Shown: positions 16,243-33,429 of the stretch, one piece after another
Numbering within the stretch: position 1 is the stretch's first letter
Layout: the number at the start of each line of letters is the position of its first letter
Assembly (NCBI GenBank): GCA_965227145.1
Contig: OZ245730.1
Coordinates: 2,467,374 to 2,531,373 of the forward strand
DNA: 64,000 nucleotides
Source: Calditrichia bacterium
Lineage (GTDB): Bacteria; Calditrichota; Calditrichia; RBG-13-44-9; J075
Reading direction: 5' to 3'
Notes under the pieces: generated by a model
Seen by the model: the letters and a program-made list of their open reading frames with translations, nothing else
What the model was told of the DNA's origin: nothing
Database searches by the model: none
Position numbers and translations under genes: made by a program

Positions 16243-16271
16243 CGATAAATCCTGATGGTTTTTGTGATTTT

Positions 16272-17765
16272 CTATTCCGGCGGCAGGTTGGCAAAAATGT
16301 TATCCACATCCGCACCGGATGTTTTGAGTTTGTGCATTTCGCGAAAATAAATGACGCTGGCGATCGCCATCACTGCCAGCCAAATTGGCGTCGAGTGAAA
16401 ATACCATGCGCTGACTTCCGCGTTGATATCTTTCCAAATGTGCACGCCGAGAAATCCGCCGAGTGTTAAAATGCCCAAAATGCCCAACGGAATCTGAATT
16501 TTTCGCGATTTCAAAACAGTAATTCCAGATGCGATGGCCGGGTTTTTACGGTGCAAAAACAGAATGGAAACAGACATCAACAGGAAGTTGACGAGCATCG
16601 ATGTAACCAAAATGTCCACGCCGAGAAAAAAGTCTCCGGCAAAATGGCTGCCCAAAATTCCGACGGATGCCATGCAGGCGCTGAGCACAATCGCCAATTG
16701 CGGTGTGTGGAATTTCGGGTGAACTTTCGCAACGGATTTTGGGAAAATGCCATCTTCCGCCCATGCGAACATCAACCGCGAAACGGACAACAGCATCGCG
16801 GGCAAATCGTTGATCAACGCGATAGCTGCGCCGGAAACGATCAGCACCGTCCAGCCAACCGGCAGCAAAACGCCGAGCAATCCGGGCGCTGTTAAATCGC
16901 GCAATTGCGCTTCCTGTGAAATATATTGCCACGGCACCGCATGATAAACTGCACCGGTGAACAGCAAATCAAACAGCCCGACAGTGAGGATCGCGATGCC
17001 GATTGCCAGCGGCAACGTTCGTCCCGGATTTTTGGCTTCGCCGCCGGCCTGCGCTATCGAATCAAACCCGATAAAACTGGAAAACAGTATCGCCGAAGCA
17101 GCCAAAAACGCACCGAAATTGAAAGAAAACGGTTCCGCTGGCGGGATGATTTGCCCGGTTTTTTGGGCTGTCGCAGCGATGAAATCCTGTTGGTTGAAAT
17201 AAAATCCGGCGATAATCAGCACAAATCCGGTGATAAACATCAGCACCATCAACGGAATGAGCGTGCGTTCGTACAACCGTAAACCGCGTAAATTTACCCA
17301 AACAAACACCCATAAAAATGCCAGCGCCAATAGCAGCCGGATGTTGGGAATTTCCAGAAATACGACAACGCCCGTCCAGCCGAGCGCATCAAAAATATCG
17401 CGCACAAACGGCACAATAACATACGAAACCACGCCAATCGCAATAGACAACCCGAACCATTGGGAAAAACTGGCCACAAATCCGAGATAGGGATTGAGCG
17501 CACGGCTGGCATACACATAACTGCCGCCCGCCCGTGGCATTGCGGATGCCAAAATTGCGTATGGCAACGCAGCCAGCACTGCCGGAATGATTGCAAATAA
17601 ATAGGCATAAACCACATTCGGGCCGATTTCCGGCACGTTGCGTTGCAGCATAAACGGCACAATATTGATGGATGCGCCCATCATCGAACAAATGCCGGTT
17701 GCCGCGAGACCCAATAATCCCATCTGCCGCGTTAGTCCGGTCCGGCGTTGCGTTGACTCATTCAT
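16272..17765 (-). CDS. APC-family amino acid/polyamine permease
   Basis: About 12 TM segments; MMGASI TM1; ASAMPRAGGSYVY; SFIGFDS TM6; SRLMFAWAEDG motif. Confidence 0.9.
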   Translation of the reverse strand: MNESTQRRTGLTRQMGLLGLAATGICSMMGASINIVPFMLQRNVPEIGPNVVYAYLFAIIPAVLAALPYAILASAMPRAGGSYVYASRALNPYLGFVASFSQWFGLSIAIGVVSYVIVPFVRDIFDALGWTGVVVFLEIPNIRLLLALAFLWVFVWVNLRGLRLYERTLIPLMVLMFITGFVLIIAGFYFNQQDFIAATAQKTGQIIPPAEPFSFNFGAFLAASAILFSSFIGFDSIAQAGGEAKNPGRTLPLAIGIAILTVGLFDLLFTGAVYHAVPWQYISQEAQLRDLTAPGLLGVLLPVGWTVLIVSGAAIALINDLPAMLLSVSRLMFAWAEDGIFPKSVAKVHPKFHTPQLAIVLSACMASVGILGSHFAGDFFLGVDILVTSMLVNFLLMSVSILFLHRKNPAIASGITVLKSRKIQIPLGILGILTLGGFLGVHIWKDINAEVSAWYFHSTPIWLAVMAIASVIYFREMHKLKTSGADVDNIFANLPPE

Positions 17766-17780
17766 AGATTCGTTTCCGTG

Positions 17781-19466
17781 CTATTCTGATTCAAAAAATT
17801 GCTGTATTTCGTCATCCAAACCGAGGTATTCCCAACGCAACAGCGCGATCGGGACGTTCCCATTGAGCATCAGGTAATCGTGGAATTTGCGCAGCTCAAA
17901 ATTCTCTTTTTTGAGAATTTTTGCATCGCTTAATAGTTTGATTATTTGCAACTTACCAATCTGATATGTAATTGCCTGTCCGGGATTATATGCAAAAAAT
18001 CCGGCTTCCTGCACCGCGGTTGCCATATCCATCGGAACGGTTTTCGCGAGATATTCGCCGGCTTGCAGAATAGAAAAAGTGCCCAAAGCCAGCCGGATAT
18101 CAACCTCAACCCGCAGTGCCCGCAGGCGCATAAAATTGTAGATAATTTCACGGGTTTTCGGGCGATCGTCAAATAATCCGAATTGGTGCATCATTTCTTC
18201 GACATAAAATCCGATGCCTTCGTTTGCGCCGGAATCGATATACGCCCGGCGGATCGGGCGGGGATTTTTCCACGAAATCGCCATTTGGAAATAGTGTCCC
18301 GGAACGCCTTCGTGAACAATCAGCGGACGCGGATCAATCGCACGGGACAAATTAAAATAGGACAAATCGCGACTCGGTTCGGGAATGTAGCTGATGCCGT
18401 TTTCATCCAACCGCGTTTCCGAAGTGAGGTCGTCGACAACGCCCATGTTGGTAAACGGTGCGAGATATTCCGGCACCGGACGGTTGAGATAATGCTGCAG
18501 CCAATCCGGCACACTCATGATATTTTTGGATTCCATAAAATCACGGATCGCCTGCTCATCTTTTTTAGCCTGCTCAATTTGCGATTCGGTACCCGGAAAA
18601 ATAGGCGGTTCCGGCAACGCTGAATTGCGCAATTTTTCGAACGTTTCGAAAGCGACTGAGCGCTGCCATTCCTGTTGACCCTGTGCCAACAGCGTCTCGG
18701 GCGAGTAGGGGATGAGGGCAACATTTTTCAGAAAATAAACATAGTTTTCGCGCCCAACGCTGAATTTGTCGCTCATTTTCAACCGGTTTTTTTTCAGCCA
18801 ACTGGTGTAACTGAGCAATGCGGCGGCGGCGTTGTCGGTCGCTTTCAATAATTTTGAGCGATATTTATTTGAGGTGATGTCACTGAGTTTTGTGAATAAT
18901 ACATCCATTTTTGTCATCACATCGCCGATGTTATCCAACGCTATTTCAGCAAATGGACGGACGCCCTCGGTGAGGTTCGTTTTTGCGGCTTCCACCGTTT
19001 TGTGAAAACTGTTGAGCCGGATAATAATTTCGTTGACACGTTCGTCCGTCATGGGAGAGCTGATCAGCAGCAACTCGAAAACCGATCCCAGCGTTTGGTG
19101 AACATAAAAATCGGGATTCCGGTGCGGTTGCCGCAACACGTTCAATTCCCAATTGACCCGTTCGATCATCGCGCTGAGGCAGAGAAAATCCACGCTGTCT
19201 TCGCGTGTCCATCCGGTTTTCGGTAGCTCATCCAGTTTTTTGCGAAATTCGCTGTATTTCCCGCGATTGTTTTCCAACGCAGCCGGGGAGAAATCCGGCG
19301 TCCATCCGGCGGGGCGTTCAACCCGTGGAATATCGTCGCCTGCAACCGGCTGTGTGACTAATCGCCAATCGCGAAAGTCCTCATAAAGTTTTAATAAATC
19401 CGGGTTTGTTTGTGCAAAAATATTCGCAGAAATGAACAACAAAAAAATCCAGATTAAAAATCGCAT
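17781..19466 (-). CDS. DUF885-family secreted protein (probable zinc metallopeptidase)
   Basis: Signal peptide after MRFLIW (RBS GAGGGG); HEGVPGHYFQ, NEGIGFYVE, PGQAITYQIG and G.VP..LL motifs of DUF885. Confidence 0.85.
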   Translation of the reverse strand: MRFLIWIFLLFISANIFAQTNPDLLKLYEDFRDWRLVTQPVAGDDIPRVERPAGWTPDFSPAALENNRGKYSEFRKKLDELPKTGWTREDSVDFLCLSAMIERVNWELNVLRQPHRNPDFYVHQTLGSVFELLLISSPMTDERVNEIIIRLNSFHKTVEAAKTNLTEGVRPFAEIALDNIGDVMTKMDVLFTKLSDITSNKYRSKLLKATDNAAAALLSYTSWLKKNRLKMSDKFSVGRENYVYFLKNVALIPYSPETLLAQGQQEWQRSVAFETFEKLRNSALPEPPIFPGTESQIEQAKKDEQAIRDFMESKNIMSVPDWLQHYLNRPVPEYLAPFTNMGVVDDLTSETRLDENGISYIPEPSRDLSYFNLSRAIDPRPLIVHEGVPGHYFQMAISWKNPRPIRRAYIDSGANEGIGFYVEEMMHQFGLFDDRPKTREIIYNFMRLRALRVEVDIRLALGTFSILQAGEYLAKTVPMDMATAVQEAGFFAYNPGQAITYQIGKLQIIKLLSDAKILKKENFELRKFHDYLMLNGNVPIALLRWEYLGLDDEIQQFFESE

Positions 19467-19532
19467 AATTCCCCTCAAAAAATTTACGGTGTTGCGCAAT
19501 AGCAGAAAAATTGTGGTAATTGATTACATCAA

Positions 19533-19651: not shown

Positions 19652-22006
19652 TCAGCGGTTTTCAACAGCGCGCATGAGTTCGCGGCTGCTGGCGTAAAAT
19701 TCCGGCAAATCCATTTCTTTGATGAACACCAAACCACGGGTTGCCCGGATAAGCGGGCTGGCGTTTTCGTAAAACCATTCGCGCCCGAGGCAAATTTTCA
19801 TCTTTTGGTATTGCTCAACCTGGATGCGCTGTGCCAGCTCAGAGAACGGACCGTCGTGCTCATAACTGGGGAAGGAAGCCGCTTTTTGCGAGCTGAACGA
19901 ATTCAAAAATGAGGTTTGCATCACAGCAAACATGTTCAGCGAAACCGGCACAAAAATATTCGCTTCCGACGGGTGAAACCGATACCAGACGTTGCGATAT
20001 CCCCACACTTTGATATCCGATCGACCGGAGCTTTTTTCATATTTTTTCAACGCTTCGGTAACGGCTTGCAGCACTTTGTAATGGGTGTCCGGGCCGCTGG
20101 CTTCCGGGTCGAACGCCACGGTCACGATATCCGGGTTTACTTCTTCCAGCAACCGGACAATCGGCACCACATCGCGCTCGATGGTCGGCTCCTCTGTAAA
20201 AATATCGCCGGTGTAAAACCCGAGCCGCAGGTGCTTCACATAATCGCAATTCCAGCCGAAATAGCCCCACAAACATTCCGCTTCCCATTCGCGGCTCATT
20301 GCTTTCAGGCTTTGGATATGCGGCAAATCTTTTTTTCCGGGATACTCGGTTTTGAAATAATGCATCAATTCGGAGATGCGATTTTTGATGCCTTTGAGAT
20401 CATCTTCATCATAAACTTCGATGAGATTGCGGAGCAGCCGCCGGGCTTCGCCCTCATTTTTGATGGTGCGGCTTTTCATCGCCACGCCGTCGAGGTATTG
20501 CCAAACATCGCGATTGCGTCCGTTGAGATTATCTTTCGCGAAATAACCGGTGTCGTGCAACCCCTCAAATTCTGGTGAATCGAGCACTTCCAGCAATTTT
20601 TCCAACTGCCCGATCATAAATTGATTGGACACGGAAGTAAACCCACCGGTGAAACAACTGAAATAATGGGTGTTGCTGGCATCGCGAATGTGACGCACCA
20701 CATGCGGCAAATAGCCGAGCATGATATCGTCGTGATGCGGCTCGGTGTGTAAAAAGCGTTTGTTGCTGTGTTTCGAAATACCGCATTCCAGTTTGGTCAT
20801 CAAATCATCGCGGACAGCTTGAAGGGTATCTTTCAAATTTCCGCTGTTTTTTTTGAGCATCACTTTGCCGAGCATGTCTTCACGAAAATCCGACGGGCTG
20901 AGCGCGGTAATCGATTTGCGGGCGTTCACCGCTGTGTCCACCACAATTTTTTCGATAGTTTCCGACGCCAGCGGATCTTCCATTTCGATGAGCGCTTTCT
21001 GACGCTCTTTCATCAGTTTTGCGGCGCCGCGTGTGATGTAAAATCGGGCGTTCGCCAATTGTTGCAACACCGTTGCGGGATACAGAATGTTCGGCGGATT
21101 TTCAATCGCATCGCGGATAACCGACGCTTTTGCTTCACCTGCGGCGATAATGATAGCCACACATTGCGGGTTGTACGCGATGGTTCCTAAACCGATGGTG
21201 ATCACCAGCCGGTTGCGGGAAATCTCGATGCCACCGAGATCCGTCGCCGCCGAAGCTTGCGTTTCGTAGTTGGTCGGCGTCAGCCGGGTTGTCGAATAAT
21301 GATCCGATCCGCTGACATTGAAGCCGATGTGCCCGTCCGGGCCGATCCCGCCGAGGAAGAAACCGATCCCGCCCATTCCGCGAATGATCTCCTCATATTC
21401 CTGGCACCATTGATCGATGCGTGCCAGCATATCGCGCTGGCGGCGTTCTTCGCGGGTTTTGCCGTAGCGGTAGCGCAGCGAGAGGTCAACGGTGTGGTTT
21501 GGCCAGACATCGGACAGCGATTCGCCGGGCTCCAGCCCGATTTTTTCGCAATTAATCAGCATCGCACGATCGCGTGAAAGCCCGAAACTCTCGATATAAA
21601 ATTGCCTGATATACGCGTAAAAACTGTTGTGCTGTTTGGGATTGATCGGATAAAACTCATCGATTTGAACAAATCGCAGCCCGTTCATTTCCGGTTTTTT
21701 GGCGGGATTCAATCCGCTTTCTTCCAGAAATTTGCGCATTTCCGGGTTTTCCCAATTGCGTTGAATATGGGTGACCCATTTGATAAAATGCTCGGGTGTT
21801 TTTCCGGTTGGCAGCGAAATTACGCCTTCGGGATTTTGCTGAACCCATTCCAGAAATCGCATCGCAGCCAGTTTTCCGAGCGCCGGAAAATTGTCAACGA
21901 TGATCGTCGGAATTCGCTCCGTTACCGGGTTAAAATCTTTAAACAATGATTTTTGCAGTGCGGCGTTTTCCACAGGGCTTAACGTCACACGATCTTTGCG
22001 TGGCAT
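19652..22006 (-). CDS. nagB: Glucosamine-6-phosphate deaminase fused to a PIG-L/LmbE-family deacetylase domain
   Basis: NagB motifs SLPTGKTP, DEFY, GGIGPDGHIGFN; PIG-L motifs TEPHHDD and GPDTH. Confidence 0.88.
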   Translation of the reverse strand: MPRKDRVTLSPVENAALQKSLFKDFNPVTERIPTIIVDNFPALGKLAAMRFLEWVQQNPEGVISLPTGKTPEHFIKWVTHIQRNWENPEMRKFLEESGLNPAKKPEMNGLRFVQIDEFYPINPKQHNSFYAYIRQFYIESFGLSRDRAMLINCEKIGLEPGESLSDVWPNHTVDLSLRYRYGKTREERRQRDMLARIDQWCQEYEEIIRGMGGIGFFLGGIGPDGHIGFNVSGSDHYSTTRLTPTNYETQASAATDLGGIEISRNRLVITIGLGTIAYNPQCVAIIIAAGEAKASVIRDAIENPPNILYPATVLQQLANARFYITRGAAKLMKERQKALIEMEDPLASETIEKIVVDTAVNARKSITALSPSDFREDMLGKVMLKKNSGNLKDTLQAVRDDLMTKLECGISKHSNKRFLHTEPHHDDIMLGYLPHVVRHIRDASNTHYFSCFTGGFTSVSNQFMIGQLEKLLEVLDSPEFEGLHDTGYFAKDNLNGRNRDVWQYLDGVAMKSRTIKNEGEARRLLRNLIEVYDEDDLKGIKNRISELMHYFKTEYPGKKDLPHIQSLKAMSREWEAECLWGYFGWNCDYVKHLRLGFYTGDIFTEEPTIERDVVPIVRLLEEVNPDIVTVAFDPEASGPDTHYKVLQAVTEALKKYEKSSGRSDIKVWGYRNVWYRFHPSEANIFVPVSLNMFAVMQTSFLNSFSSQKAASFPSYEHDGPFSELAQRIQVEQYQKMKICLGREWFYENASPLIRATRGLVFIKEMDLPEFYASSRELMRAVENR

Positions 22007-22055: not shown

Positions 22056-22976
22056 CTATACTGAAGTTATCTCCAATGCTTTTCGGACAAAACCGTTGCT
22101 TTGAACCAACCGTTGCCGGGCGGTTTCGGCATCCACATCAGCAAGAATCATCACCAATGCCGTTTTGACATGCCCTTTCGCTTTCGCCAATACAGTAACG
22201 GCGGTTTCGTAATCGACGCCGGTAACCATCATCACCGTACGTTTGGAACGCTCTTCCAGTTTGCGGGAAGTCATCATCAAATCGACCATCATATTGCCGA
22301 ATACTTTTCCCATGCGAATCATCGATGCGGTGGTGAGCATGTTCAGCACCAATTTGGTGGCGGTGCCGGCTTTCATCCGGGTGGAACCCATCACCACTTC
22401 CGGCCCGACAACCACACAAATGGCGATATCCACCGGAAAGGTAATTCGTTCGCGCGGGTTGCAGGTGACAAAAAGGGTTTTCGCGCCCATTTCGTGGGCT
22501 TTTTCCAACGCACCGAGCACATACGGCGTACGGTAGCTGGCGGCAATGCCGCAGAGCACATCGTTTTCGGTGAATCCGCGGGCGAGCAAATCTTTTTGCC
22601 CCTGCTCATGTTTATCCTCGCTGCCTTCCTGCGCGCTGATCAACGCTTTTTCGCCACCGGCGATAATGCCCTGAACCATTTCCGGCGATGTGCCAAAAGT
22701 AGGTGGGCATTCTGCCGCATCGAGCACGCCCAGCCGTCCGCTGGTTCCCGCGCCGATATAAAATAAACGCCCGTTATTTTTGAACGTTTCGACGAGCAAA
22801 TCCACCGCTTTCGCGATATAGGGAATTTCCTGCTCAACGATTCCGGGAATTTTTTGATCTTCTGTATTGATAATCCTGAGGATTTCCTCGGTTGTCTTGC
22901 TGTCAATTTCTTCCGATGCGGGGTTTCTTGCCTCCGTCACAAGATTTTCAATTTCTTTAAAAACACCATCTTGCAT
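22056..22976 (-). CDS. murQ: N-acetylmuramic acid 6-phosphate etherase
   Basis: TEARNP, GAGTSGRLGVLDAAECPPTF, GPEVVMGSTRMKAGTATKLVLNM, VFGNMMVD. Confidence 0.96.
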   Translation of the reverse strand: MQDGVFKEIENLVTEARNPASEEIDSKTTEEILRIINTEDQKIPGIVEQEIPYIAKAVDLLVETFKNNGRLFYIGAGTSGRLGVLDAAECPPTFGTSPEMVQGIIAGGEKALISAQEGSEDKHEQGQKDLLARGFTENDVLCGIAASYRTPYVLGALEKAHEMGAKTLFVTCNPRERITFPVDIAICVVVGPEVVMGSTRMKAGTATKLVLNMLTTASMIRMGKVFGNMMVDLMMTSRKLEERSKRTVMMVTGVDYETAVTVLAKAKGHVKTALVMILADVDAETARQRLVQSNGFVRKALEITSV

Positions 22977-22978
22977 GC

Positions 22979-23821
22979 TTATCTCTCCTGATGTGAATCG
23001 CGCTGGTAGAGTATTGGGTTCAGCGCTGTTTGTATGGTTTCACCTTGCTGAACGCCCGGGCAAAACGCATCGCGATCCAACGCCTGATTTTCATTTTCGG
23101 GTGCCTTTAGCTGCATATCAATGTCCATATAAATGATGGTCATTACTTTACGCGGATTTGGCGTTGTGTTCGGTCCGGCCCGGTGGAACGTCCAGCCATA
23201 GTGAAAACTTACTTCACCCGGATCGAAAGATTCCTGAATATATTCAAATTGTTGTTTTTTCAGTGCTTCGGCAATTTCTTTCTCGCTTTCATCGCTGATT
23301 TTGAAATTGCGTCCGCCGGAGAAGGTGTGGCTTTTGGCGGAGAATGCCAACGGCCCCATATCTAATGAGGTGCGCTGCAACGGAATCCAGACCGTGCAAC
23401 ATTTTTCGGTAGCCAACGGCCAATAATATTGATCGGCGTGCCACGGCGTAAATCCGCCGCCGGGTTCTTTATATAACGCCTGATCGTGATATAGCCGGAC
23501 ACCGCGGGTGCCCAACAGCTCGGCAGCAATGCCGGCCAACCGTTTGCTGAACACAAACGATTTCACAATGTCGCTGTGCTGCCACAGATTGGTAACCTGC
23601 AAAAACGCCTGCTGATAGGTATCCCGTTCTGCCATCGGTTTTTCGTGAAGATTGTTCAGTTCGAATACCTTTTTGGTAATTTCCCGGGCGTAAGTATCCA
23701 GATCAAACGGTGAAAGCACATCGCGAATTTTGATAAAACCGTTGCTCCGGAAAAACTCAATTTGTTTTTCGGAAAGCGGAAACGGTTCGTTTAATTCCCA
23801 ATGATTTGAAATGTCTGACAT
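22979..23821 (-). CDS. Fe(II)/2-oxoglutarate dioxygenase, PhyH family
   Basis: F..NGFI; TPWHAD (HxD); TVWIPL; FHRAGPN.T..PR (distal His and 2OG-binding Arg). Confidence 0.88.
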   Translation of the reverse strand: MSDISNHWELNEPFPLSEKQIEFFRSNGFIKIRDVLSPFDLDTYAREITKKVFELNNLHEKPMAERDTYQQAFLQVTNLWQHSDIVKSFVFSKRLAGIAAELLGTRGVRLYHDQALYKEPGGGFTPWHADQYYWPLATEKCCTVWIPLQRTSLDMGPLAFSAKSHTFSGGRNFKISDESEKEIAEALKKQQFEYIQESFDPGEVSFHYGWTFHRAGPNTTPNPRKVMTIIYMDIDMQLKAPENENQALDRDAFCPGVQQGETIQTALNPILYQRDSHQER

Positions 23822-23837
23822 TGTACATCCAATAGTT

Positions 23838-25586
23838 TTATTTTAATGCTTCCCAATTTCTGGCGCTTAAATCCCACATGATAAAACCGAAACCGAGTGC
23901 AGCAATCAGCAGCAATCCCAGACCCATTAGCGTTTCGCCGAGCAACAATTTACCGAAACCGAACAGCGCGGAATAAATCATGATGATACCGGCGAGCCAG
24001 TCGAGCAAATCGCGACCCAATCCGGTATCCGCTTTCACATCCGGCGCTTTCGCTGCGATGGGTTTCCACATGCTGCCGCCGGGACGTGTTTTGCGATAAA
24101 ATTTGATCAGCGTTTCCTCGGTTTCCGGCGCGGTTAAAAATGTAACCGTCAGCCAGGTTATTGTGCTGATGCCAACCGTAATCAACATGACCATTGCAAA
24201 ACCGTGGGCATCGTTGGTATCCATCCCCAAAACGCTTTGCAACACAATCGAAACAATCAGAGATGCGAGCATCGCCGAAATTTCCGACCATGCGTTAATT
24301 CGCCACCAAAACCAGCGCAAAATATAAACCGATCCGGTGCCCGCGCCGATCGCCAGCAAAAATTTCCACGCGCCGGCGATGGTCTCCATTTGGGAAGTAA
24401 TGAGTGCGCCGGCGATCACCAAAAACACGGTGGAAATTCGAGCGGCCATAACATAATGTTTTTCGGACGCATCCGTTTTTACAAACCGTTTGTAAAAATC
24501 GTTGATCAAATATGAACTGCCCCAGTTGAGCTGAGTGCTGACAGTGGACATAAACGCCGCTGCAAAAGAGGCGAGCATCAGCCCTTTGAAACCGGTCGGC
24601 AGATAATTGAGCATCACCAAAATGTAGCCGGTTTGTTTGTCTTCGACATTCGGAAAAAGCACCAAACTGGTCAGCGCAACCAGCACCCACGGCCACGGGC
24701 GCAACGCATAATGCGCAATATTGAACCATAGCGTCGCCAGCAGCGAATGGCGTTCGTTTTTGGTGGCGAACATCCGTTGGGCAATGTAACCGCCGCCGCC
24801 CGGTTCCGCCCCGGGATACCAGGCTGCCCACCAGTTCACCGCCAGATACACAAAAAATGCGGTCAACGGCATCCAGACAGATCCGATTTCCGGCGTAAAA
24901 TTGAGAATTTGATGATCCGCACCGTATTGGGCAATCAGCCCTGTTTTTAGCCCGTCGATGCCGCCAACGGCATCAACAGCAAAAAACGCCAGCGCAATCG
25001 AGCCAACCATCGCGATGATAAATTGCAGAAAATCGGTGACGACCACGCCCCACAATCCGCTGAGTCCGCTGTATAATAATGTTACCAAAACGCAAATCCC
25101 GACCGCAACCCATTTGTCCACACCGATAGATAATTCGATAATTTTGACCATCGCCAGCGTTACCCAACCGAGAATAATCAGGTTGATCGGAATTGCGAGA
25201 TAGAGCGCCCGGAATCCGCGCAAAATGGCCGCCGGTTTGCCGGAATAACGGATTTCGGTGAACTCGACATCGGTGAGCACCTCCGCCCGTCGCCACAACC
25301 GCGCAAACAGGAAAACGGTGAGCAAACCGCTCATCAACATGTTCCACCAGAGCCAGTTCCCGGCGATGCCGTGATTGGCTACCAGTTCGGTTACCGCCAG
25401 CGGCGTATCTGCAGCGAACGTGGTTGCAACCATGCTGGTGCCGGCCAGCCACCACGGCAGGCTGCGCCCGGATGTAAAATATTCCACAATATCGCCACCG
25501 GCTTTGCGGGAAAAATAAAGCCCGATGCCCAGTGCCAGCACAAAATAAACCGCGACAAATGTCCAGTCCAGAAAACTAACTTGCAT
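23838..25586 (-). CDS. Sodium:solute symporter (SLC5 family)
   Basis: YFTSGRSLPWW, SMVATTFAADT, AQRMFAT, AAFMST..QLNWGSSY motifs; multi-TM. Start placed at MQVSFLD, overlapping the upstream stop. Confidence 0.9.
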   Translation of the reverse strand: MQVSFLDWTFVAVYFVLALGIGLYFSRKAGGDIVEYFTSGRSLPWWLAGTSMVATTFAADTPLAVTELVANHGIAGNWLWWNMLMSGLLTVFLFARLWRRAEVLTDVEFTEIRYSGKPAAILRGFRALYLAIPINLIILGWVTLAMVKIIELSIGVDKWVAVGICVLVTLLYSGLSGLWGVVVTDFLQFIIAMVGSIALAFFAVDAVGGIDGLKTGLIAQYGADHQILNFTPEIGSVWMPLTAFFVYLAVNWWAAWYPGAEPGGGGYIAQRMFATKNERHSLLATLWFNIAHYALRPWPWVLVALTSLVLFPNVEDKQTGYILVMLNYLPTGFKGLMLASFAAAFMSTVSTQLNWGSSYLINDFYKRFVKTDASEKHYVMAARISTVFLVIAGALITSQMETIAGAWKFLLAIGAGTGSVYILRWFWWRINAWSEISAMLASLIVSIVLQSVLGMDTNDAHGFAMVMLITVGISTITWLTVTFLTAPETEETLIKFYRKTRPGGSMWKPIAAKAPDVKADTGLGRDLLDWLAGIIMIYSALFGFGKLLLGETLMGLGLLLIAALGFGFIMWDLSARNWEALK

Positions 25587-27075
25587 CGGCGCCTCCGCGT
25601 AGTGCGTTCGAGATGATGCCAACCACAATAGTGGTCAGGCTGCCGACAACCGTATATAGCGGCCAGGCGATTTGAACCATTTGGATCACGATCGTCATCA
25701 CGATCAGCGCAACGATAAACCCGACGATCGCATCCGTTTCTTTTGCTTTCGCATACACCAGTCCGAGCAGAAAAGTGCCGAGCAGACCGCCGTATGTATA
25801 TGATGCAATACCGAGCGCTACTTCAACGACTGTGCCTTCCAGTCCGATAAAAAGAATGGCAACGCCAACCAAAATCACGCCCCAGATTATTGTCGCCAAT
25901 CGGGACGTTTTGAGTTGCTGCGCCTCTGTTTTGTCCTTTCCGAACAGCGGCAAATAAATATCGAGCACCGCCGCGCTGGACAAGCTGGAAAGGCTGCTGG
26001 AGAGCGTGCTCATCGCCGCGGCAAACAGCGCAGCGACAATCAACCCGCTGATGCCGGGAGGCATTTCTTCCACAATAAATTTGGGAAAAATACCGTCCGA
26101 GCGACTGAGTCCGAGTTCCTGAATACTGGCACCGTTGTAAAACGCAAACAGCATCACACCGATGATCAGGAAAACCAGAAATTGGAGCAATACGGTAAAA
26201 CCGCTGCCGATCATCGCTTTTTTGCTATCCGCGAGATTGCGGCAAGTGAGCACTCGCTGAACAATCAACTGATCGGTTCCGTGCGAAGCCAGACTGAAAA
26301 TTGCGCCGCCGGCAACCGCCGTCAGAAATGTGTAGGAGTTTTTGATGAAATCGGAGAAGCTGAGTTCGAAACCACTGTAAAACCACTGGAATTTGTTGTC
26401 GGGTGCGGCGGCGGCGATAACATCTGAAAATCCGTTGGGTAATTTGTTGAGCATCATCCAACCGGCTAAAATGGCGCCACCCATATAAATTAACCACTGA
26501 ATCATGTCCATCCAAATGACAGATTTAATACCGCCGATATAGGTGTAAACCATTGTCAGCACACCCACCGCGATAATCGCATAAATATAAAATGCCGTGT
26601 TGCTCATTCCGCTGAAAGTGCCGCTGCTTTTCATGATAATTGCCAGCGGAATTGCCGTTGCAAACAGCCGGACGCCGTCGGCTAACAGTCGGGTAATCAT
26701 GAATGTGACGCTGGCGGTGTTGCGCATCCGTTGCCCAAAACGATCGCCCAAAAAGTGATACGCCGTACTCAAATCGCCGCGATAATACGCCGGCAGCAGA
26801 ATCACGGAAACCAGCCCGCGCCCGACCACATAGCCGAACACCAATTGCAGAAACGTCATATTTCCGCCGTAACTCACAGCCGGAATGCCGATAAACGTGA
26901 GCACGCTGGTTTCGGTCGCGACGATGCTGAACATCACTGCGTACCACGGGATCGATCTGCCGCCCAAAAAATAATCGTTGGCAGATTTCTGGTTTCGTCC
27001 GATGTATGCGCCGAATGCCGCAGATGCCGCCATGTAAACAACAACTATAATGATATCAATTGTGGTAAATCCCAT
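25576..27075 (-). CDS. Sodium:solute symporter (SLC5, NIS-like subgroup); candidate MurNAc/amino-sugar importer
   Basis: DYFLGGRSIP, SIVATETS, GTDQLIVQRVL, AAMSTLSSSL; TAATG coupling to the GH3 gene. Confidence 0.9.
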   Translation of the reverse strand: MGFTTIDIIIVVVYMAASAAFGAYIGRNQKSANDYFLGGRSIPWYAVMFSIVATETSVLTFIGIPAVSYGGNMTFLQLVFGYVVGRGLVSVILLPAYYRGDLSTAYHFLGDRFGQRMRNTASVTFMITRLLADGVRLFATAIPLAIIMKSSGTFSGMSNTAFYIYAIIAVGVLTMVYTYIGGIKSVIWMDMIQWLIYMGGAILAGWMMLNKLPNGFSDVIAAAAPDNKFQWFYSGFELSFSDFIKNSYTFLTAVAGGAIFSLASHGTDQLIVQRVLTCRNLADSKKAMIGSGFTVLLQFLVFLIIGVMLFAFYNGASIQELGLSRSDGIFPKFIVEEMPPGISGLIVAALFAAAMSTLSSSLSSLSSAAVLDIYLPLFGKDKTEAQQLKTSRLATIIWGVILVGVAILFIGLEGTVVEVALGIASYTYGGLLGTFLLGLVYAKAKETDAIVGFIVALIVMTIVIQMVQIAWPLYTVVGSLTTIVVGIISNALRGGADAS

Positions 27076-29924
27076 TAGTTATCTGCGACCTCCCCGACGT
27101 TTTCACCCATTTTTTTCAGTATCGCTTTGAGCACCGCATTGTGAAACGCCCGACGAACCGGATAAACGCCGCCACGTTCCCGGGTGGGATAAACGCGGTT
27201 GGTCAGCAAAATCATGGCAATTTTTCGATTCGGATCGACGACAAACGTGGTTCCGGTAAACCCGGAATGTCCGAAGCTGCCTTCGGAAAGCAGATCGCCA
27301 TACATCGATTTTCCTTTGGATGGCGTATCCCAGCCGATTGCGCGGGTGCTGCCTTCGGGTATATTTTGCGGGGTTGTCCAGTATTTTACTGTCGATGGCG
27401 ACATGTATCGTTTGTGGGCGTAAACGCCGCCGTTGATCAGCATTTGACCGATGACCGCCAAATCTTCCGCCGTGGAAAACAATCCGGCATGCGACGAAAC
27501 GCCGTTCAGGAAAAAGGTGTTTTCGTCGTGAACATCGCCGTGAATCAATCCGCGATCCATACTCCCGCCGATTTCGGTCGGCGCAATTCGCGGCAGCAAA
27601 TCGCGGGACGGATTATACATAGTGTTTTTCAAACCGAGCGGTTGGTAAATCAAATCTGCGGAAAGTTCGTCCATTTCTTTCCCGGTGATCGTCCGGAGAA
27701 TTTCACCGGCCATAATCAATCCGAGATCGGAGTAAATCACCGAATCGCCGGGTGTAAAATCGAGCGGCAGTTGATAAATGTAATCCAGCGCTTCGGGTTT
27801 ATTTTTGGCAACCTGCCACAGCGGTGACCACCAATGCGCGCCGGAAGAGTGGGTGAGCAGGTTTCGCACAGTTACGGAATCTTTCAATCCGCCGGTAAAT
27901 TTCGGTAGATAGCTGTGAACCGGAATGTCCAGCTCCAGCCGGCTTTGTTCCCACAGCCGCATCGCGGAAATGGTAGTGGAAACCACTTTGGTTACCGATG
28001 CGAGATCGTATATCGTTTCGGCAGTGACAGCCGGGGAATTGGCATCGTAGGTTTGGCGCCCGAAACTTTTGCTGGCCAACAGTTTTCCGTCGTGAACGAT
28101 GGCAACCTGCGCGCCGGGGAAAACCGAATCTGCAATAGCTTCTTTGAGCACATCGTAAGCTTCGGTGAACAGTTCGTCATCGATAGCACGTTCGATTTGC
28201 ATCGGTCGGGCATCGCGTTGCAGCCCGTCGCCGATCGCATAAAATTCCGGGATGGAAACCGGTAATTTCCCACGAACCGGAATTTCCCCGAACACTGCTT
28301 TTACCGCGGCGTTGACAGCGGTTCCGCCCGTGCCGTACGCACACAGATAACTCGGCGTGTTTGGCATTTTACGAATTTCGTATGGCGAACCGAATGAAAC
28401 CACCGCCATCGGCGTTTCGGTTTCGAACAGTTGATCGAGCAGCATTACCACCGTATCCGGCAGCGAAACGGAGCCTTTGTAGCTGCCCCAGGTCACAAAC
28501 ACACCGGCGACGATGGCATCCACTGAATCGGCCATCGCGACAATTTCCTGCGCTTCGGCAACGGTGGTTCGCGGATCGATCATCGCGATCATCGCTCCGG
28601 GAATCCGGCGTGAAACTTCGCGATTGAGCGCCGCATCGTAACTGCTGTTTTTACGATCGGTGATGGTGAGAACCATCGCTTTTTTGATATTTTCCGCAGC
28701 CAGCGGCAGCACGTTTTTTTCGTCGCGGAGCAGCGTCATTGCGGCTTCGGCGATTTCTGCAGCTTTTTGGCTGTGGGCATTTGTGGCGACAACCTGTTCA
28801 ATTTTCTCGAAATCGATCTTCGGTTTCTGATACAATCCCTGATCAAATTTTGCCTGCAAAATCCGGCGAACCGATGTGTCGATCCGTTCCGCCGGAATCC
28901 GCCCATCTTTGGCAGCTTGCACCACAAAACGATACGTCGATTCAAATTGCGGTGGGATCAAAACCATGTCGATACCGGCATTGATGGCGCGGACAGCCGC
29001 ATCGCCGCCCCAATAATTATTGGTGATGCCGCGCATGTCCATCGCATCGGTGACTGCCAGCCCCTCAAAACCGAGCTGGTTGCGAAGCACTTCGGTGGTA
29101 AAATACGGATCGATCGATGCCGGGCGACCTTCCATTTGCGGAAACGCGCTGTAGGTAATGTGCGAAACCATGACCATTTTTACACCCGCGGCAATCGCTG
29201 CGCGAAACGGTGCAAGTTCTGTATTTTCAATACGTTCGGCAGATGCGCCGATGACCGGCAATCCCAAATGGGAATCCACATCTGTATCACCGTGACCGGG
29301 AAAATGTTTGGCTGTGGCATAAACGCCGCCATCCTGCAATCCGCGAATAAACGCACTGCCCAGTTTTCCGACCATCTCGGGATTTTCGCCAAACGAACGT
29401 GTGTTAATTATAATGTTATCGGGATTGTTGTTGACATCCAACGCCGGAGCATAACCGGCCTGAACCCCAAAAACGCGGGCTTCTTCGGCGGTAATTTTGC
29501 CCATTTGATAAGCGTATTCTTCCGAACCGGTCGCGCCGACAGCCATATTTTGCAGAAAATCCGTGCCTTCGTTGATGCGCATGGTGATGCCCCATTCGAT
29601 ATCCGCCATCATCATCAGGGGAATTTTGGCTTCGTCCTGCAACCGCTGGATATCGCGGGCAACAGCGTACGGATTGGCGCGATAAAACATGGCGCCGCCG
29701 ATGTGATAATCCTTCACCAGCCGAATCATGTGCTGAAAATCCGGGTCGTCTTCATTATAAAATCGAAAAACAAAGGCCGGAGCCATCATTTGCCCGATTT
29801 TCTCCTCCAGCGACATTTGGGATATTGTTGCGCTGACCCAATCTTTGGGTGGTGTTTCGGTCCGTGTGCCTGCGCACTGCCACAAAAAGCAGGCAAGTAG
29901 AAGCGATACGAGTATTTTTTTCAT
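27075..29924 (-). CDS. GH3 beta-N-acetylglucosaminidase (NagZ-type) fused to a serine-hydrolase/beta-lactamase-like (AmiE-like) domain; lipoprotein
   Basis: Lipobox LWQC after MKKIL (29924); KHFPGHG with DSH dyad; TDAM nucleophile; SxxK (ASVTK), YSD and GHSGFTG motifs. Confidence 0.9.
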   Translation of the reverse strand: MKKILVSLLLACFLWQCAGTRTETPPKDWVSATISQMSLEEKIGQMMAPAFVFRFYNEDDPDFQHMIRLVKDYHIGGAMFYRANPYAVARDIQRLQDEAKIPLMMMADIEWGITMRINEGTDFLQNMAVGATGSEEYAYQMGKITAEEARVFGVQAGYAPALDVNNNPDNIIINTRSFGENPEMVGKLGSAFIRGLQDGGVYATAKHFPGHGDTDVDSHLGLPVIGASAERIENTELAPFRAAIAAGVKMVMVSHITYSAFPQMEGRPASIDPYFTTEVLRNQLGFEGLAVTDAMDMRGITNNYWGGDAAVRAINAGIDMVLIPPQFESTYRFVVQAAKDGRIPAERIDTSVRRILQAKFDQGLYQKPKIDFEKIEQVVATNAHSQKAAEIAEAAMTLLRDEKNVLPLAAENIKKAMVLTITDRKNSSYDAALNREVSRRIPGAMIAMIDPRTTVAEAQEIVAMADSVDAIVAGVFVTWGSYKGSVSLPDTVVMLLDQLFETETPMAVVSFGSPYEIRKMPNTPSYLCAYGTGGTAVNAAVKAVFGEIPVRGKLPVSIPEFYAIGDGLQRDARPMQIERAIDDELFTEAYDVLKEAIADSVFPGAQVAIVHDGKLLASKSFGRQTYDANSPAVTAETIYDLASVTKVVSTTISAMRLWEQSRLELDIPVHSYLPKFTGGLKDSVTVRNLLTHSSGAHWWSPLWQVAKNKPEALDYIYQLPLDFTPGDSVIYSDLGLIMAGEILRTITGKEMDELSADLIYQPLGLKNTMYNPSRDLLPRIAPTEIGGSMDRGLIHGDVHDENTFFLNGVSSHAGLFSTAEDLAVIGQMLINGGVYAHKRYMSPSTVKYWTTPQNIPEGSTRAIGWDTPSKGKSMYGDLLSEGSFGHSGFTGTTFVVDPNRKIAMILLTNRVYPTRERGGVYPVRRAFHNAVLKAILKKMGENVGEVADN

Positions 29925-30240
29925 GATATGCCTATGGTTTGCTGAGCGGTAAAATTGTGAAGTCACAAAAAAAATGACCAATGCGGCTGTCGCGAATGTC
30001 TGTGTTTTGCTGACTAAGTTAACACAGTTGGTCAACATTATCAATCATTTACGGTGTAAATATTCCAACTCGAAGTAGAAATTGGCGGATTTTCTGTATC
30101 CGACCGGTTCATATATTCTCTTAAAGTTTAATTTTAAAAATATTTTTTATCTACATTTTTTTTAACTGGAAAACATACTATATTAACTGTATATTATGAT
30201 CAAATAGCAGATGTTGAATAAAAATAGTATCGGTTGCGTT

Positions 30241-31113
30241 ATGATGAAGCCTGTTAATGTAAAACTGACGAATTCTCCGCTCTCCTCATTCAAGTTCAAA
30301 AAGATCCATTTACCCGAGTTTGATTTCAACTGGCACTGCCATCCCGAGTACGAACTGATTTTTATGGTGAACAGTAAAGGCAAGCGCTTTATCGGCGACA
30401 GTATTGCCTATTACGAAACCGGCGATCTGTTCTTTCTCGGACCGAATTTGCCCCACACCTGGTACACCAATTCCGTAAAAAATCAACTTGGACATCACGA
30501 TGCCATCCAGATTCAATTTATGGAAAACGTTGCCGGATTGAACATTCGGGAAGCACCGGAATTTTTGACAGTATCCCAAATTTGCGGATTCGCCAGTCGC
30601 GGTTTGCAAATTGAGGGCGAAACCCGCGCCCAAATCGCTGAAATTATGATACGGATGGAAAGCGAAAAAGGGTTGGAACGGCTGATAAGCCTGATGGAAA
30701 TCCTCAACACGCTCGAAAAAGCGGACACAGAAAAAATGTCATTTTTGTCCAGCGTGGAGCTGGCACAGGAATTCCAGCCGGAGCTACAAAGCCGGATAGA
30801 CAAGGTTTGCACCTACATCAACCAAAATTACAAACAACGCCTCAATCTTGAGCAAGCTGCCAAAATTGCCAATATGAGCGTTACTGCTTTCAGCCGGTTT
30901 TTCAAAAAATCGACCGGAAAAACGTTCGTCCAATACGTAAACGAATTGCGAATTGGCCGAGCCTGCAAGCTGCTCATCGAGAGCCAGCTGTCGATTGCCG
31001 AAATTTGTTACGAGGTTGGGTTCAACAATTTGTCCAATTTCAACCGCCGGTTTTTCGAACGCCATAAAATGAGTCCACGCCAGTACCGGCAGGAATTCAC
31101 CAAAAAATTTTAG
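30241..31113 (+). CDS. AraC-family transcriptional regulator (cupin + HTH)
   Basis: WHCHPEYEL cupin; A..ANMS..AFSRFFKK; GFNNLSNFNR.F....MSP.QYR. Alternative start at 30211. Confidence 0.92.
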   Translation: MMKPVNVKLTNSPLSSFKFKKIHLPEFDFNWHCHPEYELIFMVNSKGKRFIGDSIAYYETGDLFFLGPNLPHTWYTNSVKNQLGHHDAIQIQFMENVAGLNIREAPEFLTVSQICGFASRGLQIEGETRAQIAEIMIRMESEKGLERLISLMEILNTLEKADTEKMSFLSSVELAQEFQPELQSRIDKVCTYINQNYKQRLNLEQAAKIANMSVTAFSRFFKKSTGKTFVQYVNELRIGRACKLLIESQLSIAEICYEVGFNNLSNFNRRFFERHKMSPRQYRQEFTKKF

Positions 31114-31260
31114 TCCGGTCGCCGGTTATTAACAACCGGCGATCTATTTTCGGAAAAAGAAATGCCCGGATAATACTGGCAGCAGAATTCCGGGTTCGCT
31201 ATTTTTTTTCTTTTTGATCGGATCACACGGTTAGGAAATTTTTCTGGAAAGCGGTTGAAT

Positions 31261-32361: not shown

Positions 32362-32407
32362 GTTCAAAACAACGAAATATTCGTACAAAAATTCCCGGAG
32401 TCTTATA

Positions 32408-33385: not shown

Positions 33386-33429
33386 TGGTGTAAATTATCG
33401 AGAAAAGATGTAAAACAGGAAATTTAATC

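What the first reader, a model, noticed from the sequence alone, without database searches (positions are those of the whole stretch)
22056..25586. A 2OG dioxygenase sits where a MurNAc kinase is expected
Seen: SSS, PhyH, murQ with gaps of 16 and 2 bp; no anmK/murK/ROK kinase or nagA anywhere in the locus. Established: MurQ needs MurNAc-6-P, and SSS import does not phosphorylate; some Fe/2OG enzymes (RdpA, TauD family) cleave (R)-2-oxypropionate ethers to release pyruvate. Inference: this PhyH enzyme may oxidatively process MurNAc or a modified muramic/amino sugar (e.g. lactyl-ether cleavage or removal of an N- or O-substituent), a step not known in murein catabolism. The kinase may simply lie elsewhere.
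Basis: partly seen in the sequence, partly recalled or inferred. Interest (0 to 1): 0.72.

Follow-up and report, generated by a model that had tools for sequence, protein, structure and literature searches.

The report
Oxygenase gene inside a cell-wall-sugar salvage operon
In a Calditrichota bacterium, an intact iron/2-oxoglutarate oxygenase gene sits between a sodium-coupled transporter gene and the MurNAc-6-phosphate etherase gene of a cell-wall scavenging operon; it is a lineage-specific insertion of a very widespread enzyme of unknown function, and it hints at, but does not prove, an oxygen-dependent step in muramic-acid breakdown.

Summary
SSS2 (23838-25586), PhyH (22979-23821) and murQ (22056-22976) lie on the minus strand with gaps of 16 and 2 nt, and the murQ ribosome-binding site lies inside the PhyH 3' end. 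They belong to a ~25-kb AraC-controlled peptidoglycan-scavenging locus. No BadF, ROK or AnmK-type kinase lies in the 64-kb window.

PhyH has an intact catalytic core (H128-x-D130, H213, R224; AF2 pLDDT 93). It belongs to a large family (~55-65% identity across many phyla). In about 150 other loci the gene stands alone, and in about a third of them it has a divergent AraC that is a full-length homologue of this locus's regulator.

Only a small Calditrichia-like clade has PhyH between an SSS gene and murQ/nagB, in four arrangements. The usual Calditrichota locus is AraC<>MurK-NagZ/PBP-SSS1-SSS2-MurQ without PhyH, and one relative has both MurK and PhyH. PhyH is therefore not a positional or chemical substitute for the kinase, since MurQ, NagB and the GlcNAc released by NagZ all still need an unlinked kinase.

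Best reading (about 0.4): an accessory O2-dependent step on the imported muramic sugar. The substrate is unknown.

The parts
22979..23821 (-). PhyH-family Fe(II)/2-oxoglutarate oxygenase, 280 aa, cytoplasmic. Catalytic residues are H128, D130 and H213, with R224 for 2OG.
   Evidence: Pfam PF05721 at 97 bits. Those four residues are invariant in a 39-sequence alignment. AF2 pLDDT 93.4. Foldseek best matches are SnoK, MysH and SnoN, TM up to 0.74.
22056..22976 (-). MurQ, the MurNAc-6-phosphate etherase, 306 aa, translationally coupled to PhyH.
   Evidence: TIGR00274 at 384 bits against a cut-off of 302. The SD sequence AGGAGA lies inside the PhyH 3' end and the gap is 2 nt.
23838..25586 (-). SSS2, a sodium:solute symporter of 582 aa, immediately upstream of PhyH.
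   Evidence: PF00474. Homologues of 75-82% identity occur in Calditrichota, Marinimicrobia, Ignavibacteria and Bacteroidota.
25576..27075 (-). SSS1, a second sodium:solute symporter of 499 aa; its 3' end overlaps the SSS2 start by 11 nt.
   Evidence: PF00474, and TIGR00813 at 189 bits.
27075..30044 (-). Exported fusion of a GH3 NagZ-like beta-N-acetylglucosaminidase with a PBP4B/AmpH-like serine hydrolase. It is the first gene of the operon.
   Evidence: PF00933, PF01915 and PF00144; NCBIfam PBP4B E 1.7e-57 and NagZ E 1.8e-44, both below their curated cut-offs.
30147..30187 (.). Bipartite operator- or promoter-like motif, GTTAATATAGTAT-N18-AAATGTAGA, in the divergent AraC/GH3 intergenic region.
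   Evidence: It is conserved at the same place in all related peptidoglycan loci. L173 and L174 carry a second copy beside the TonB-receptor gene on the far side of AraC. It is the only copy in the window.
30211..31113 (+). AraC-family regulator, divergent from the operon. The true start is probably near 30241, because orthologues are 284-290 aa.
   Evidence: PF12833 and PF00165. It is 62-82% identical to the regulators of the related loci and 31-44% identical over its full length to the AraC genes next to stand-alone PhyH genes.
19652..22006 (-). 784-aa NagB-like GlcN-6-P deaminase with a probable PIG-L/LmbE deacetylase domain.
   Evidence: The structure model failed.
14776..19499 (-). Downstream sub-operon: exported DUF885 (17781-19499), an APC amino-acid permease (16272-17765) and an aldo-keto reductase-RidA fusion (14776-16242).
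   Evidence: Pfam. It is syntenic in L005, L007 and L009 but absent from the PhyH-bearing L008 and L096.
31255..35946 (+). AraC-side genes: an HGSNAT/DUF5009-like membrane protein (31255-32361), a PD40 propeller protein (32408-33385) and a T9SS-secreted Amidase_3 MurNAc-L-Ala amidase (33430-35946).
   Evidence: Pfam. Syntenic in L005 and L010.
10402..11922 (-). MltF-like lytic transglycosylase (SBP_bac_3 plus SLT), a likely source of 1,6-anhydro-MurNAc products.
   Evidence: Pfam. It is directly adjacent to the locus in L009.

Best explanation
The three genes are part of one AraC-controlled operon for scavenging peptidoglycan. Inferred steps of the pathway are as follows. Secreted amidase and lytic transglycosylase release fragments. 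An exported NagZ/PBP fusion trims them. Two sodium symporters import the products. MurQ and a NagB/PIG-L enzyme feed them into glycolysis. PhyH is an intact cytoplasmic Fe(II)/2-oxoglutarate oxygenase from a very large, strongly conserved family. That family normally occurs as a solitary gene, often with a divergent AraC of the same subfamily as this locus's regulator. In one Calditrichia-like sub-lineage the gene was inserted behind an SSS gene and in front of murQ/nagB, and it has stayed there through several rearrangements. I infer that it performs an O2-dependent accessory step on the imported muramic-type sugar. The most likely chemistry is hydroxylation of a carbon that carries an ether oxygen. 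One option is the lactyl C-alpha: MurNAc + 2OG + O2 -> GlcNAc + pyruvate + succinate + CO2, a route that needs neither MurK nor MurQ. The other is C6 of 1,6-anhydro-MurNAc, which would open the anhydro ring to an aldehyde. PhyH does not replace a kinase, and an unlinked sugar kinase (AnmK, NagK or similar) must still serve MurQ and NagB. Shown here: gene order, coupling, intact catalytic residues, conservation of the linkage, and distribution of the family. Inferred: the substrate and the reaction.
For: Gaps of 16 and 2 nt, with the murQ SD inside the PhyH 3' end. PhyH stays next to SSS and murQ/nagB in four arrangements. These are the window, L005-7, L009, L010 and L091 (SSS1-SSS2-PhyH-MurQ); L008 (MurK-GH3-SSS1-PhyH-MurQ); and L096 (SSS2-PhyH-NagB-MurQ). 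PhyH identity between them is only 61-72%. The window, L010 and L091 form a clade with SH-aLRT 98. The catalytic set is invariant and the model is confident. The peptidoglycan-linked copies keep all 71 columns that are at least 95% conserved in the stand-alone family, apart from scattered conservative replacements in single lineages, so they are true orthologues. The AraC next to stand-alone PhyH genes aligns over residues ~12-296 of the window's regulator at 130-254 bits, while other AraC proteins in the same loci match only the HTH at 47 bits or less. The same regulator subfamily controls the peptidoglycan locus even where PhyH is absent (L173, 65% identity). No MurK-type kinase is in the window. 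None of the 120 best MurK-like proteins sits on the 6,282,912-bp contig that carries the window's own SSS2; this is weak evidence. Literature: MurNAc use by MurQ-less mycobacteria is O2-dependent and relies on an unidentified lactyl etherase (PMC6572805, PMC13041923). T. forsythia uses anhMurNAc without an AnmK (PMC7670621).
Against: About 150 family members at 54-65% identity from Bacteroidota, Planctomycetota, Verrucomicrobiota, Acidobacteriota, Chloroflexota, Actinomycetota and Latescibacterota show no link to murQ or amino-sugar genes. Their 88 operonic neighbours fall into 97 Pfam families, none seen more than three times. Other lineages couple the gene to unrelated partners: GH127-like proteins, or a class-III-like Zn-ADH with an esterase. 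Most Calditrichota peptidoglycan loci work without PhyH. All linked loci could descend from a single insertion. The operator-like motif of the peptidoglycan loci is not found at stand-alone AraC-PhyH loci. The nearest solved structures (SnoK, MysH, SnoN, proline and ectoine hydroxylases; 17-23% identity) do not indicate a substrate. MurQ is retained next to PhyH, so a lactyl-cleaving PhyH would be partly redundant.
Confidence: 0.4

Rival explanations
1. Passenger gene. PhyH acts on a substrate unrelated to peptidoglycan, the same unknown small molecule as in the hundreds of stand-alone loci. It was merely inserted into this operon in one ancestor and inherited from there, perhaps because both units use the same AraC subfamily.
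For: The family is overwhelmingly stand-alone, with random neighbours. The peptidoglycan-linked copies show no active-site change. A Calditrichaceae MAG has an unlinked copy (L016). The peptidoglycan locus is complete without PhyH in L173, L174 and L175. Different lineages show different partners.
Against: The gene stayed between SSS and murQ/nagB through loss of SSS2 (L008), transposition of nagB (L096) and loss of the kinase. Its identity fell to 61-72% over that time. The coupling to murQ is tight. Dispensable inserts inside a tight operon are usually lost.
Confidence: 0.35
2. PhyH hydroxylates a non-sugar product of peptidoglycan breakdown, for example a stem-peptide amino acid (D-Glu, meso-DAP, D-Ala) or a small peptide, as the PhyH-fold amino-acid hydroxylases do.
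For: Foldseek matches include proline hydroxylase H11, leucine hydroxylase GriE and ectoine hydroxylase. The window's locus also holds DUF885, an amino-acid permease and an AKR-RidA fusion. Relatives hold peptide-recycling genes: MR_MLE, NlpC/P60, S13 peptidase and DAP-decarboxylase-like.
Against: PhyH is always flanked by the SSS and murQ/nagB genes, not by the peptide genes. Those peptide-gene sets differ completely between PhyH-bearing loci (the window against L008 and L096). The stand-alone family shows no link to amino-acid genes.
Confidence: 0.1

Closest known systems
Tannerella forsythia murT-murK-murQ operon (PMC5790795, PMC7670621)
   Same: It has a sodium-symporter-type MurNAc importer followed by MurQ in one operon of an FCB-group bacterium. 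Uptake is PTS-independent, so cytoplasmic phosphorylation is required.
   Different: There the gene between the transporter and the etherase is the BadF-type MurNAc kinase MurK. Here it is a PhyH oxygenase and the window holds no kinase. Whether SSS1 or SSS2 is an orthologue of MurT was not tested.
Canonical Calditrichota/Marinimicrobia peptidoglycan locus (L173, L174, L175, L171): AraC<>BadF kinase-GH3/beta-lactamase-SSS1-SSS2-(NagB)-MurQ
   Same: Orthologous regulator (62-65% identical), GH3 fusion, both symporters and MurQ, plus the same operator-like motif.
   Different: Those loci have no PhyH and have the kinase as first gene. They carry a different set of peptide-recycling genes.
RdpA/SdpA/TfdA ether-cleaving Fe/2OG dioxygenases
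   Same: They show the proposed type of chemistry: hydroxylation of the carbon next to an ether oxygen of a 2-oxypropionate or oxyacetate, releasing pyruvate or glyoxylate. This is from established knowledge and was not tested here.
   Different: They belong to the TauD/TfdA family (PF02668). The window protein matches PhyH (PF05721) only and is not a member.
SnoK/SnoN (nogalamycin) and MysH, the nearest solved PhyH-fold structures
   Same: The double-stranded beta-helix fold and the HxD...H triad. SnoK and SnoN act on C-H bonds of an amino sugar.
   Different: Only 17-23% identical. They are biosynthetic enzymes acting on large glycosylated polyketides or mycosporines. No substrate inference is possible.
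Unidentified O2-dependent MurNAc lactyl etherase of mycobacteria (PMC6572805, PMC13041923)
   Same: It is an activity that removes the lactyl group from unphosphorylated MurNAc without MurQ. Growth on MurNAc needs O2, and the activity cleaves 4MU-D-lactate.
   Different: No gene is known for it. The authors assume lactate, not pyruvate, is released. Whether mycobacteria carry a member of this PhyH family could not be tested here.

Membership tests
PhyH-type Fe(II)/2-oxoglutarate oxygenase (PF05721) | Profile match above the curated threshold | tested here: met
   97.1 bits against a cut-off of 22, covering profile positions 1-213.
PhyH-type Fe(II)/2-oxoglutarate oxygenase (PF05721) | HxD...H iron triad and an Arg about 11 residues after the distal His for the 2OG C5 carboxylate | tested here: met
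   H128, D130, H213 and R224 are invariant in 39 diverse homologues. The spacing equals that of human PHYH (H264/R275); the human numbering is from my own knowledge.
PhyH-type Fe(II)/2-oxoglutarate oxygenase (PF05721) | Double-stranded beta-helix fold | tested here: met
   AF2 pLDDT 93.4 and pTM 0.91. Foldseek probability 1.0 to SnoK, SnoN, MysH, EctD and PHYH.
PhyH-type Fe(II)/2-oxoglutarate oxygenase (PF05721) | 2OG-dependent turnover with a defined substrate | not testable with these tools
   Needs an enzyme assay.
MurQ (MurNAc-6-P etherase) | Equivalog-level profile match | tested here: met
   TIGR00274 at 384.5 bits against a cut-off of 302; NF003915 at 414 bits against a cut-off of 168.
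murT-murK-murQ type MurNAc utilisation operon | BadF/BcrAD-type MurNAc kinase encoded in the operon | tested here: not met
   No PF01869 or ROK protein was found in the window. tblastn with three locus kinases gave E of 1.8 or worse.
murT-murK-murQ type MurNAc utilisation operon | Sodium-symporter importer and MurQ co-transcribed | tested here: met
   SSS1, SSS2 and MurQ lie on one strand with gaps of 16 nt or less, apart from the inserted PhyH.
TauD/TfdA-type ether-cleaving dioxygenases (RdpA, SdpA, TfdA) | Membership of PF02668 | tested here: not met
   The only Pfam match at E <= 0.001 is PhyH. NCBIfam hits are PtlH-, PhnY- and EctD-like, and all are far below their cut-offs.
Complete E. 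coli-type MurNAc catabolic pathway in this genome | AnmK, MurK or NagK present somewhere in the genome | not testable with these tools
The indirect check found no close MurK orthologue on the window's 6.28-Mb contig, but the contig column is unreliable.

The most novel reading that the evidence does not exclude
The whole PhyH family (hundreds of species in at least eight phyla, typically a lone gene with its own AraC) is the missing oxygen-dependent, kinase- and MurQ-independent MurNAc lactyl etherase: MurNAc (or anhMurNAc) + 2OG + O2 -> GlcNAc (or anhGlcNAc) + pyruvate + succinate + CO2. The Calditrichia operon would then be the one context that reveals its substrate. The AraC partners would be muramic-acid sensors. 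The O2-dependent MurNAc use seen in MurQ-less bacteria would have a candidate enzyme class.
Probability: 0.12. Interest if true: 0.85.

Novelty: new variant of a known kind. Interest (0 to 1): 0.5.

Why it matters
MurNAc catabolism is thought to have a single ether-cleaving enzyme, MurQ, which needs a phosphorylated substrate. Two gaps in that picture are documented. Mycobacteria lacking MurQ use MurNAc in an O2-dependent way through an unidentified etherase. Tannerella uses anhMurNAc without AnmK. A conserved Fe/2OG oxygenase that is translationally coupled to murQ is a concrete, cheaply testable candidate for an oxidative step in muramic-acid breakdown. The result also gives the first functional lead for a very large uncharacterised PhyH/AraC gene pair. 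If the assays are negative, the case becomes an example of a passenger gene inside a tight operon.

Tried and rejected

2. As an indirect check, I searched a profile of three locus kinases against the protein collection. None of the 120 best hits lies on the 6,282,912-bp contig that carries the window's SSS2. The contig column is unreliable, though: L008's own kinase is listed with a 2,686-bp contig. This is only weak evidence that the kinase is absent.

3. I looked for a hidden kinase in the 784-aa NagB-like protein. Pfam at E <= 10, PDB sequence searches and a PDB profile search found only NagB and a weak PIG-L match. The AF2 model, built from a 4-sequence alignment, failed at pLDDT 40.7 and was not used.

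4. I tested for a shared AraC operator between peptidoglycan loci and stand-alone PhyH loci. An HMM of the peptidoglycan-locus motif finds only peptidoglycan loci. The visual resemblance to Bacteroidota sites (CAATATAGTG) is not significant.

5. I considered coupling of PhyH to the AKR-RidA fusion, with the reductase acting on an aldehyde product. I rejected it as a general feature, because the fusion is absent from the PhyH-bearing L008 and L096.

6. I considered formaldehyde detoxification partners as evidence for a demethylase. The Emticicia Zn-ADH is class-III-like but falls below every equivalog cut-off, and the esterase matches FghA only at E 8e-7. This is suggestive only.

8. Literature searches found no paper linking a dioxygenase to MurQ or MurNAc catabolism.


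Full report
**What is there.** On the minus strand, the ORF listing gives a symporter ORF, PhyH at 22979-23821 and murQ at 22056-22976. The symporter ORF is listed as 23838-25628 from a TTG. The real start is the ATG at 25586, because homologues are 582-583 aa. The gaps are 16 and 2 nt. The last PhyH codons, caGGAGAgaTAA, provide the Shine-Dalgarno sequence for the murQ ATG two bases further on. PhyH and murQ are therefore translationally coupled. Pfam and NCBIfam confirm the identities. The symporter matches SSF. PhyH scores 97 bits against a cut-off of 22. MurQ matches the equivalog TIGR00274 at 384 bits against a cut-off of 302.

**The wider locus.** The three genes lie inside a larger locus.
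- An AraC regulator (30211-31113, + strand) diverges from an operon on the minus strand.
- That operon encodes an exported GH3 NagZ-like/PBP4B-like fusion (27075-30044), SSS1 (25576-27075), SSS2, PhyH, MurQ and a 784-aa NagB-like protein (19652-22006).
- Next come DUF885, an amino-acid permease and an aldo-keto-reductase-RidA fusion (14776-19499).
- Behind AraC lie an HGSNAT-like membrane protein, a PD40 propeller protein and a T9SS-secreted MurNAc-L-Ala amidase (31255-35946).
- An MltF-like lytic transglycosylase lies at 10402-11922.

This is a peptidoglycan-scavenging locus of a Calditrichota-type bacterium. The closest public proteins are labelled Calditrichia or Calditrichota.

**The kinase and nagA statements.** None of the larger ORFs I scanned across the 64-kb window is an AnmK, BadF/BcrAD or ROK protein. 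tblastn with the kinases encoded in related loci finds nothing. A classical NagA is also absent. However, the 784-aa protein has, after its NagB-like part, a weak PIG-L/LmbE match with a PHHDD motif. It may be the deacetylase. A structure model of this protein failed at pLDDT 40.7.

**The PhyH protein.** It is cytoplasmic and looks catalytically competent. H128-x-D130, H213 and R224 are invariant in 39 diverse homologues. The AlphaFold model is confident, with pLDDT 93.4. Its nearest solved relatives are SnoK, MysH, SnoN, a proline hydroxylase, EvdO2 and EctD, at 17-23% identity and TM up to 0.74. That confirms the fold but says nothing about the substrate.

**The family at large.** The family is large and unusually well conserved.
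- At least 8,000 proteins match.
- More than 590 stretches match among species-representative genomes, and the same again in metagenomes.
- Identities to the window protein are 54-65% in Bacteroidota, Planctomycetota, Verrucomicrobiota, Acidobacteriota, Chloroflexota, Actinomycetota, Latescibacterota and Calditrichota.
- The tree largely follows taxonomy.

I compared the window's locus proteins with 160 fetched loci. Outside one small clade, none has murQ, the NagB-like gene, the GH3 fusion or close SSS homologues near PhyH. The 88 same-strand neighbours within 150 nt fall into 97 Pfam families, none seen more than three times. By default, then, the gene stands alone.

Some lineages have their own partners:
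- GH127-like proteins in Chitinophagaceae;
- a class-III-like Zn-ADH plus an esterase in Emticicia (plasmid NC_018744) and two other Bacteroidota;
- distant SSS transporters in about five loci.

**The recurring AraC partner.** About a third of the loci carry a divergent AraC gene 100-300 nt upstream of PhyH. These regulators align with the window's AraC over residues ~12-296, which includes the ligand-binding half. Identities are 31-44% and scores 130-254 bits. Other AraC proteins in the same loci match only the HTH, at 47 bits or less. The window's regulator and the PhyH-associated regulators therefore belong to one subfamily.

**The Calditrichota locus variants.** Contexts of SSS2 homologues show the usual arrangement. 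In L173, L174 and L175 it is AraC<>BadF-type kinase-GH3 fusion-SSS1-SSS2-(NagB)-MurQ followed by peptide-recycling genes, with no PhyH. The AraC of L173 is 65% identical to the window's. Matching contig lengths between searches point to at least seven contigs that carry both SSS2 and the kinase (L173's among them).

PhyH-bearing loci form four arrangements:
- the window, L005-7, L009, L010 and L091: SSS1-SSS2-PhyH-MurQ. In the window, in L005/L006 (the same species) and in L010, AraC is followed directly by GH3 with no kinase;
- L008: kinase-GH3-SSS1-PhyH-MurQ, plus NamZ;
- L096: SSS2-PhyH-NagB-MurQ.

The linked PhyH copies keep every strongly conserved family column. The only changes shared by the whole linked group against the family consensus are M77T and W253F. 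All peptidoglycan loci share a bipartite motif next to araC, at 30147-30187 in the window. L173 and L174 have a second copy on the far side of AraC, beside the TonB-receptor gene. An HMM of this motif does not hit stand-alone PhyH loci.

**Interpretation.** A dispensable insert would not be expected to stay inside a tightly coupled operon while SSS2 is lost, nagB moves, the kinase disappears and its own sequence drifts to 61-72% identity.

The kinase-replacement framing does not hold, for three reasons.
- In this phylum the kinase's place is the first gene after AraC, not between SSS and murQ.
- L008 has both the kinase and PhyH.
- MurQ, the NagB-like enzyme and the GlcNAc released by NagZ all need a kinase, so an unlinked one must exist.

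As an indirect check, no close MurK orthologue appears on the 6.28-Mb contig that carries the window. The contig column is not reliable, so this counts for little.

My best reading, at about 0.4, is an O2-dependent accessory step on the imported muramic sugar. Two chemistries fit a PhyH enzyme, and both are inference.
- Hydroxylation of the lactyl C-alpha, giving GlcNAc plus pyruvate. This would also make sense of a lone gene with its own sensor in many aerobic glycan degraders.
- Hydroxylation at C6 of 1,6-anhydro-MurNAc, opening the ring to an aldehyde. This fits the lytic transglycosylase in the locus and the aldehyde-reducing partners seen elsewhere.

The main rival, at about 0.35, is that PhyH is a passenger with an unrelated substrate. 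The evidence for it is the overwhelmingly unlinked family, the unchanged active site, and the fact that most Calditrichota loci do without the gene.

**Comparison with what is known.** The T. forsythia operon murT (sodium-symporter superfamily)-murK (BadF family)-murQ is the closest described system (PMC5790795). The window differs by having PhyH in the middle position and no kinase. RdpA, SdpA and TfdA show the proposed chemistry but belong to another family (PF02668), and the window protein is not a member. Two open questions give the finding its interest. One is the unidentified, O2-dependent MurNAc lactyl etherase of MurQ-less mycobacteria, which also cleaves 4MU-D-lactate (PMC6572805, PMC13041923). 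The other is the unknown route for anhMurNAc in T. forsythia, which lacks AnmK (PMC7670621). I found no paper that connects a dioxygenase with MurNAc catabolism.

**Verdict.** This is a real, conserved but lineage-restricted variant of a known kind of locus. It contains an uncharacterised oxygenase whose role is a testable hypothesis, not a demonstrated new pathway. The interest is moderate. It would be high if the enzyme assay showed cleavage of MurNAc.

Noticed in passing
window 30147-30187: A bipartite motif, GTTAATATAGTAT-N18-AAATGTAGA, lies next to the araC start. It is conserved in all related peptidoglycan loci. L173 and L174 have a second copy on the far side of AraC, beside a TonB-dependent receptor gene. 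It is probably the regulon's operator, its promoter, or both.
   Followed up: partly
window 27075-30044: A single exported protein fuses a GH3 NagZ-like glycosidase to a PBP4B/AmpH-like beta-lactamase-fold domain. The same fusion heads the peptidoglycan loci of Calditrichota and a Marinimicrobia MAG (L171, L173-L175).
   Followed up: partly
window 19652-22006: A 784-aa NagB-like protein carries a probable PIG-L/LmbE deacetylase domain (PHHDD at residues 423-427) and about 130 unassigned C-terminal residues. It has no Pfam hit above threshold. The AF2 model built from 4 sequences failed.
   Followed up: partly
window 14776-16242: An in-frame fusion of an aldo-keto reductase (residues 20-314) and a RidA/L-PSP domain (375-483). 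It is conserved in L005 and L009 at the end of the peptidoglycan locus.
   Followed up: no
L172 10001-12733: A Bacteroidota MAG has a 77%-identical SSS2 homologue that is not in a peptidoglycan locus. It sits between a glycerate-kinase-like gene (DUF4147/MOFRL) and a D-2-hydroxyacid dehydrogenase. SSS2 may therefore carry a hydroxy-carboxylate, not MurNAc as such.
   Followed up: no
L002, L013, L074, L108, L115, L132, L149 (AraC-PhyH intergenic regions): Stand-alone AraC-PhyH pairs of Planctomycetota and unassigned metagenome contigs share their own bipartite motif, AAAAAGTAyCA-N19-GCGTAGmGC, 15-70 nt (175 nt in L108) from the estimated araC start.
   Followed up: partly
L176 (Emticicia oligotrophica plasmid NC_018744, 22125-24935), L047, L021: In these Bacteroidota a 57-60% identical PhyH is followed by a class-III-like Zn alcohol dehydrogenase. 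In Emticicia the two genes overlap by 4 nt and an esterase-D-like hydrolase follows. This hints that the family's product is an aldehyde.
   Followed up: partly
L033, L048, L145, L153, L054: In Chitinophagaceae-type loci the PhyH gene is followed by a divergent GH127-like (DUF1680) protein. In four of the five loci (not L048) a subfamily AraC also lies within about 2.5 kb upstream.
   Followed up: partly
L005 8236-9983 and 16055-17568: In the same-species MAG GCA_041391305.1 both SSS2 and the amino-acid permease are split into two ORFs. This is either a frameshift or an assembly error.
   Followed up: no
window 30211-30243: The annotated AraC ORF starts 10-11 codons before its orthologues do. 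The real start is probably the Met at 30241 or 30244.
   Followed up: no
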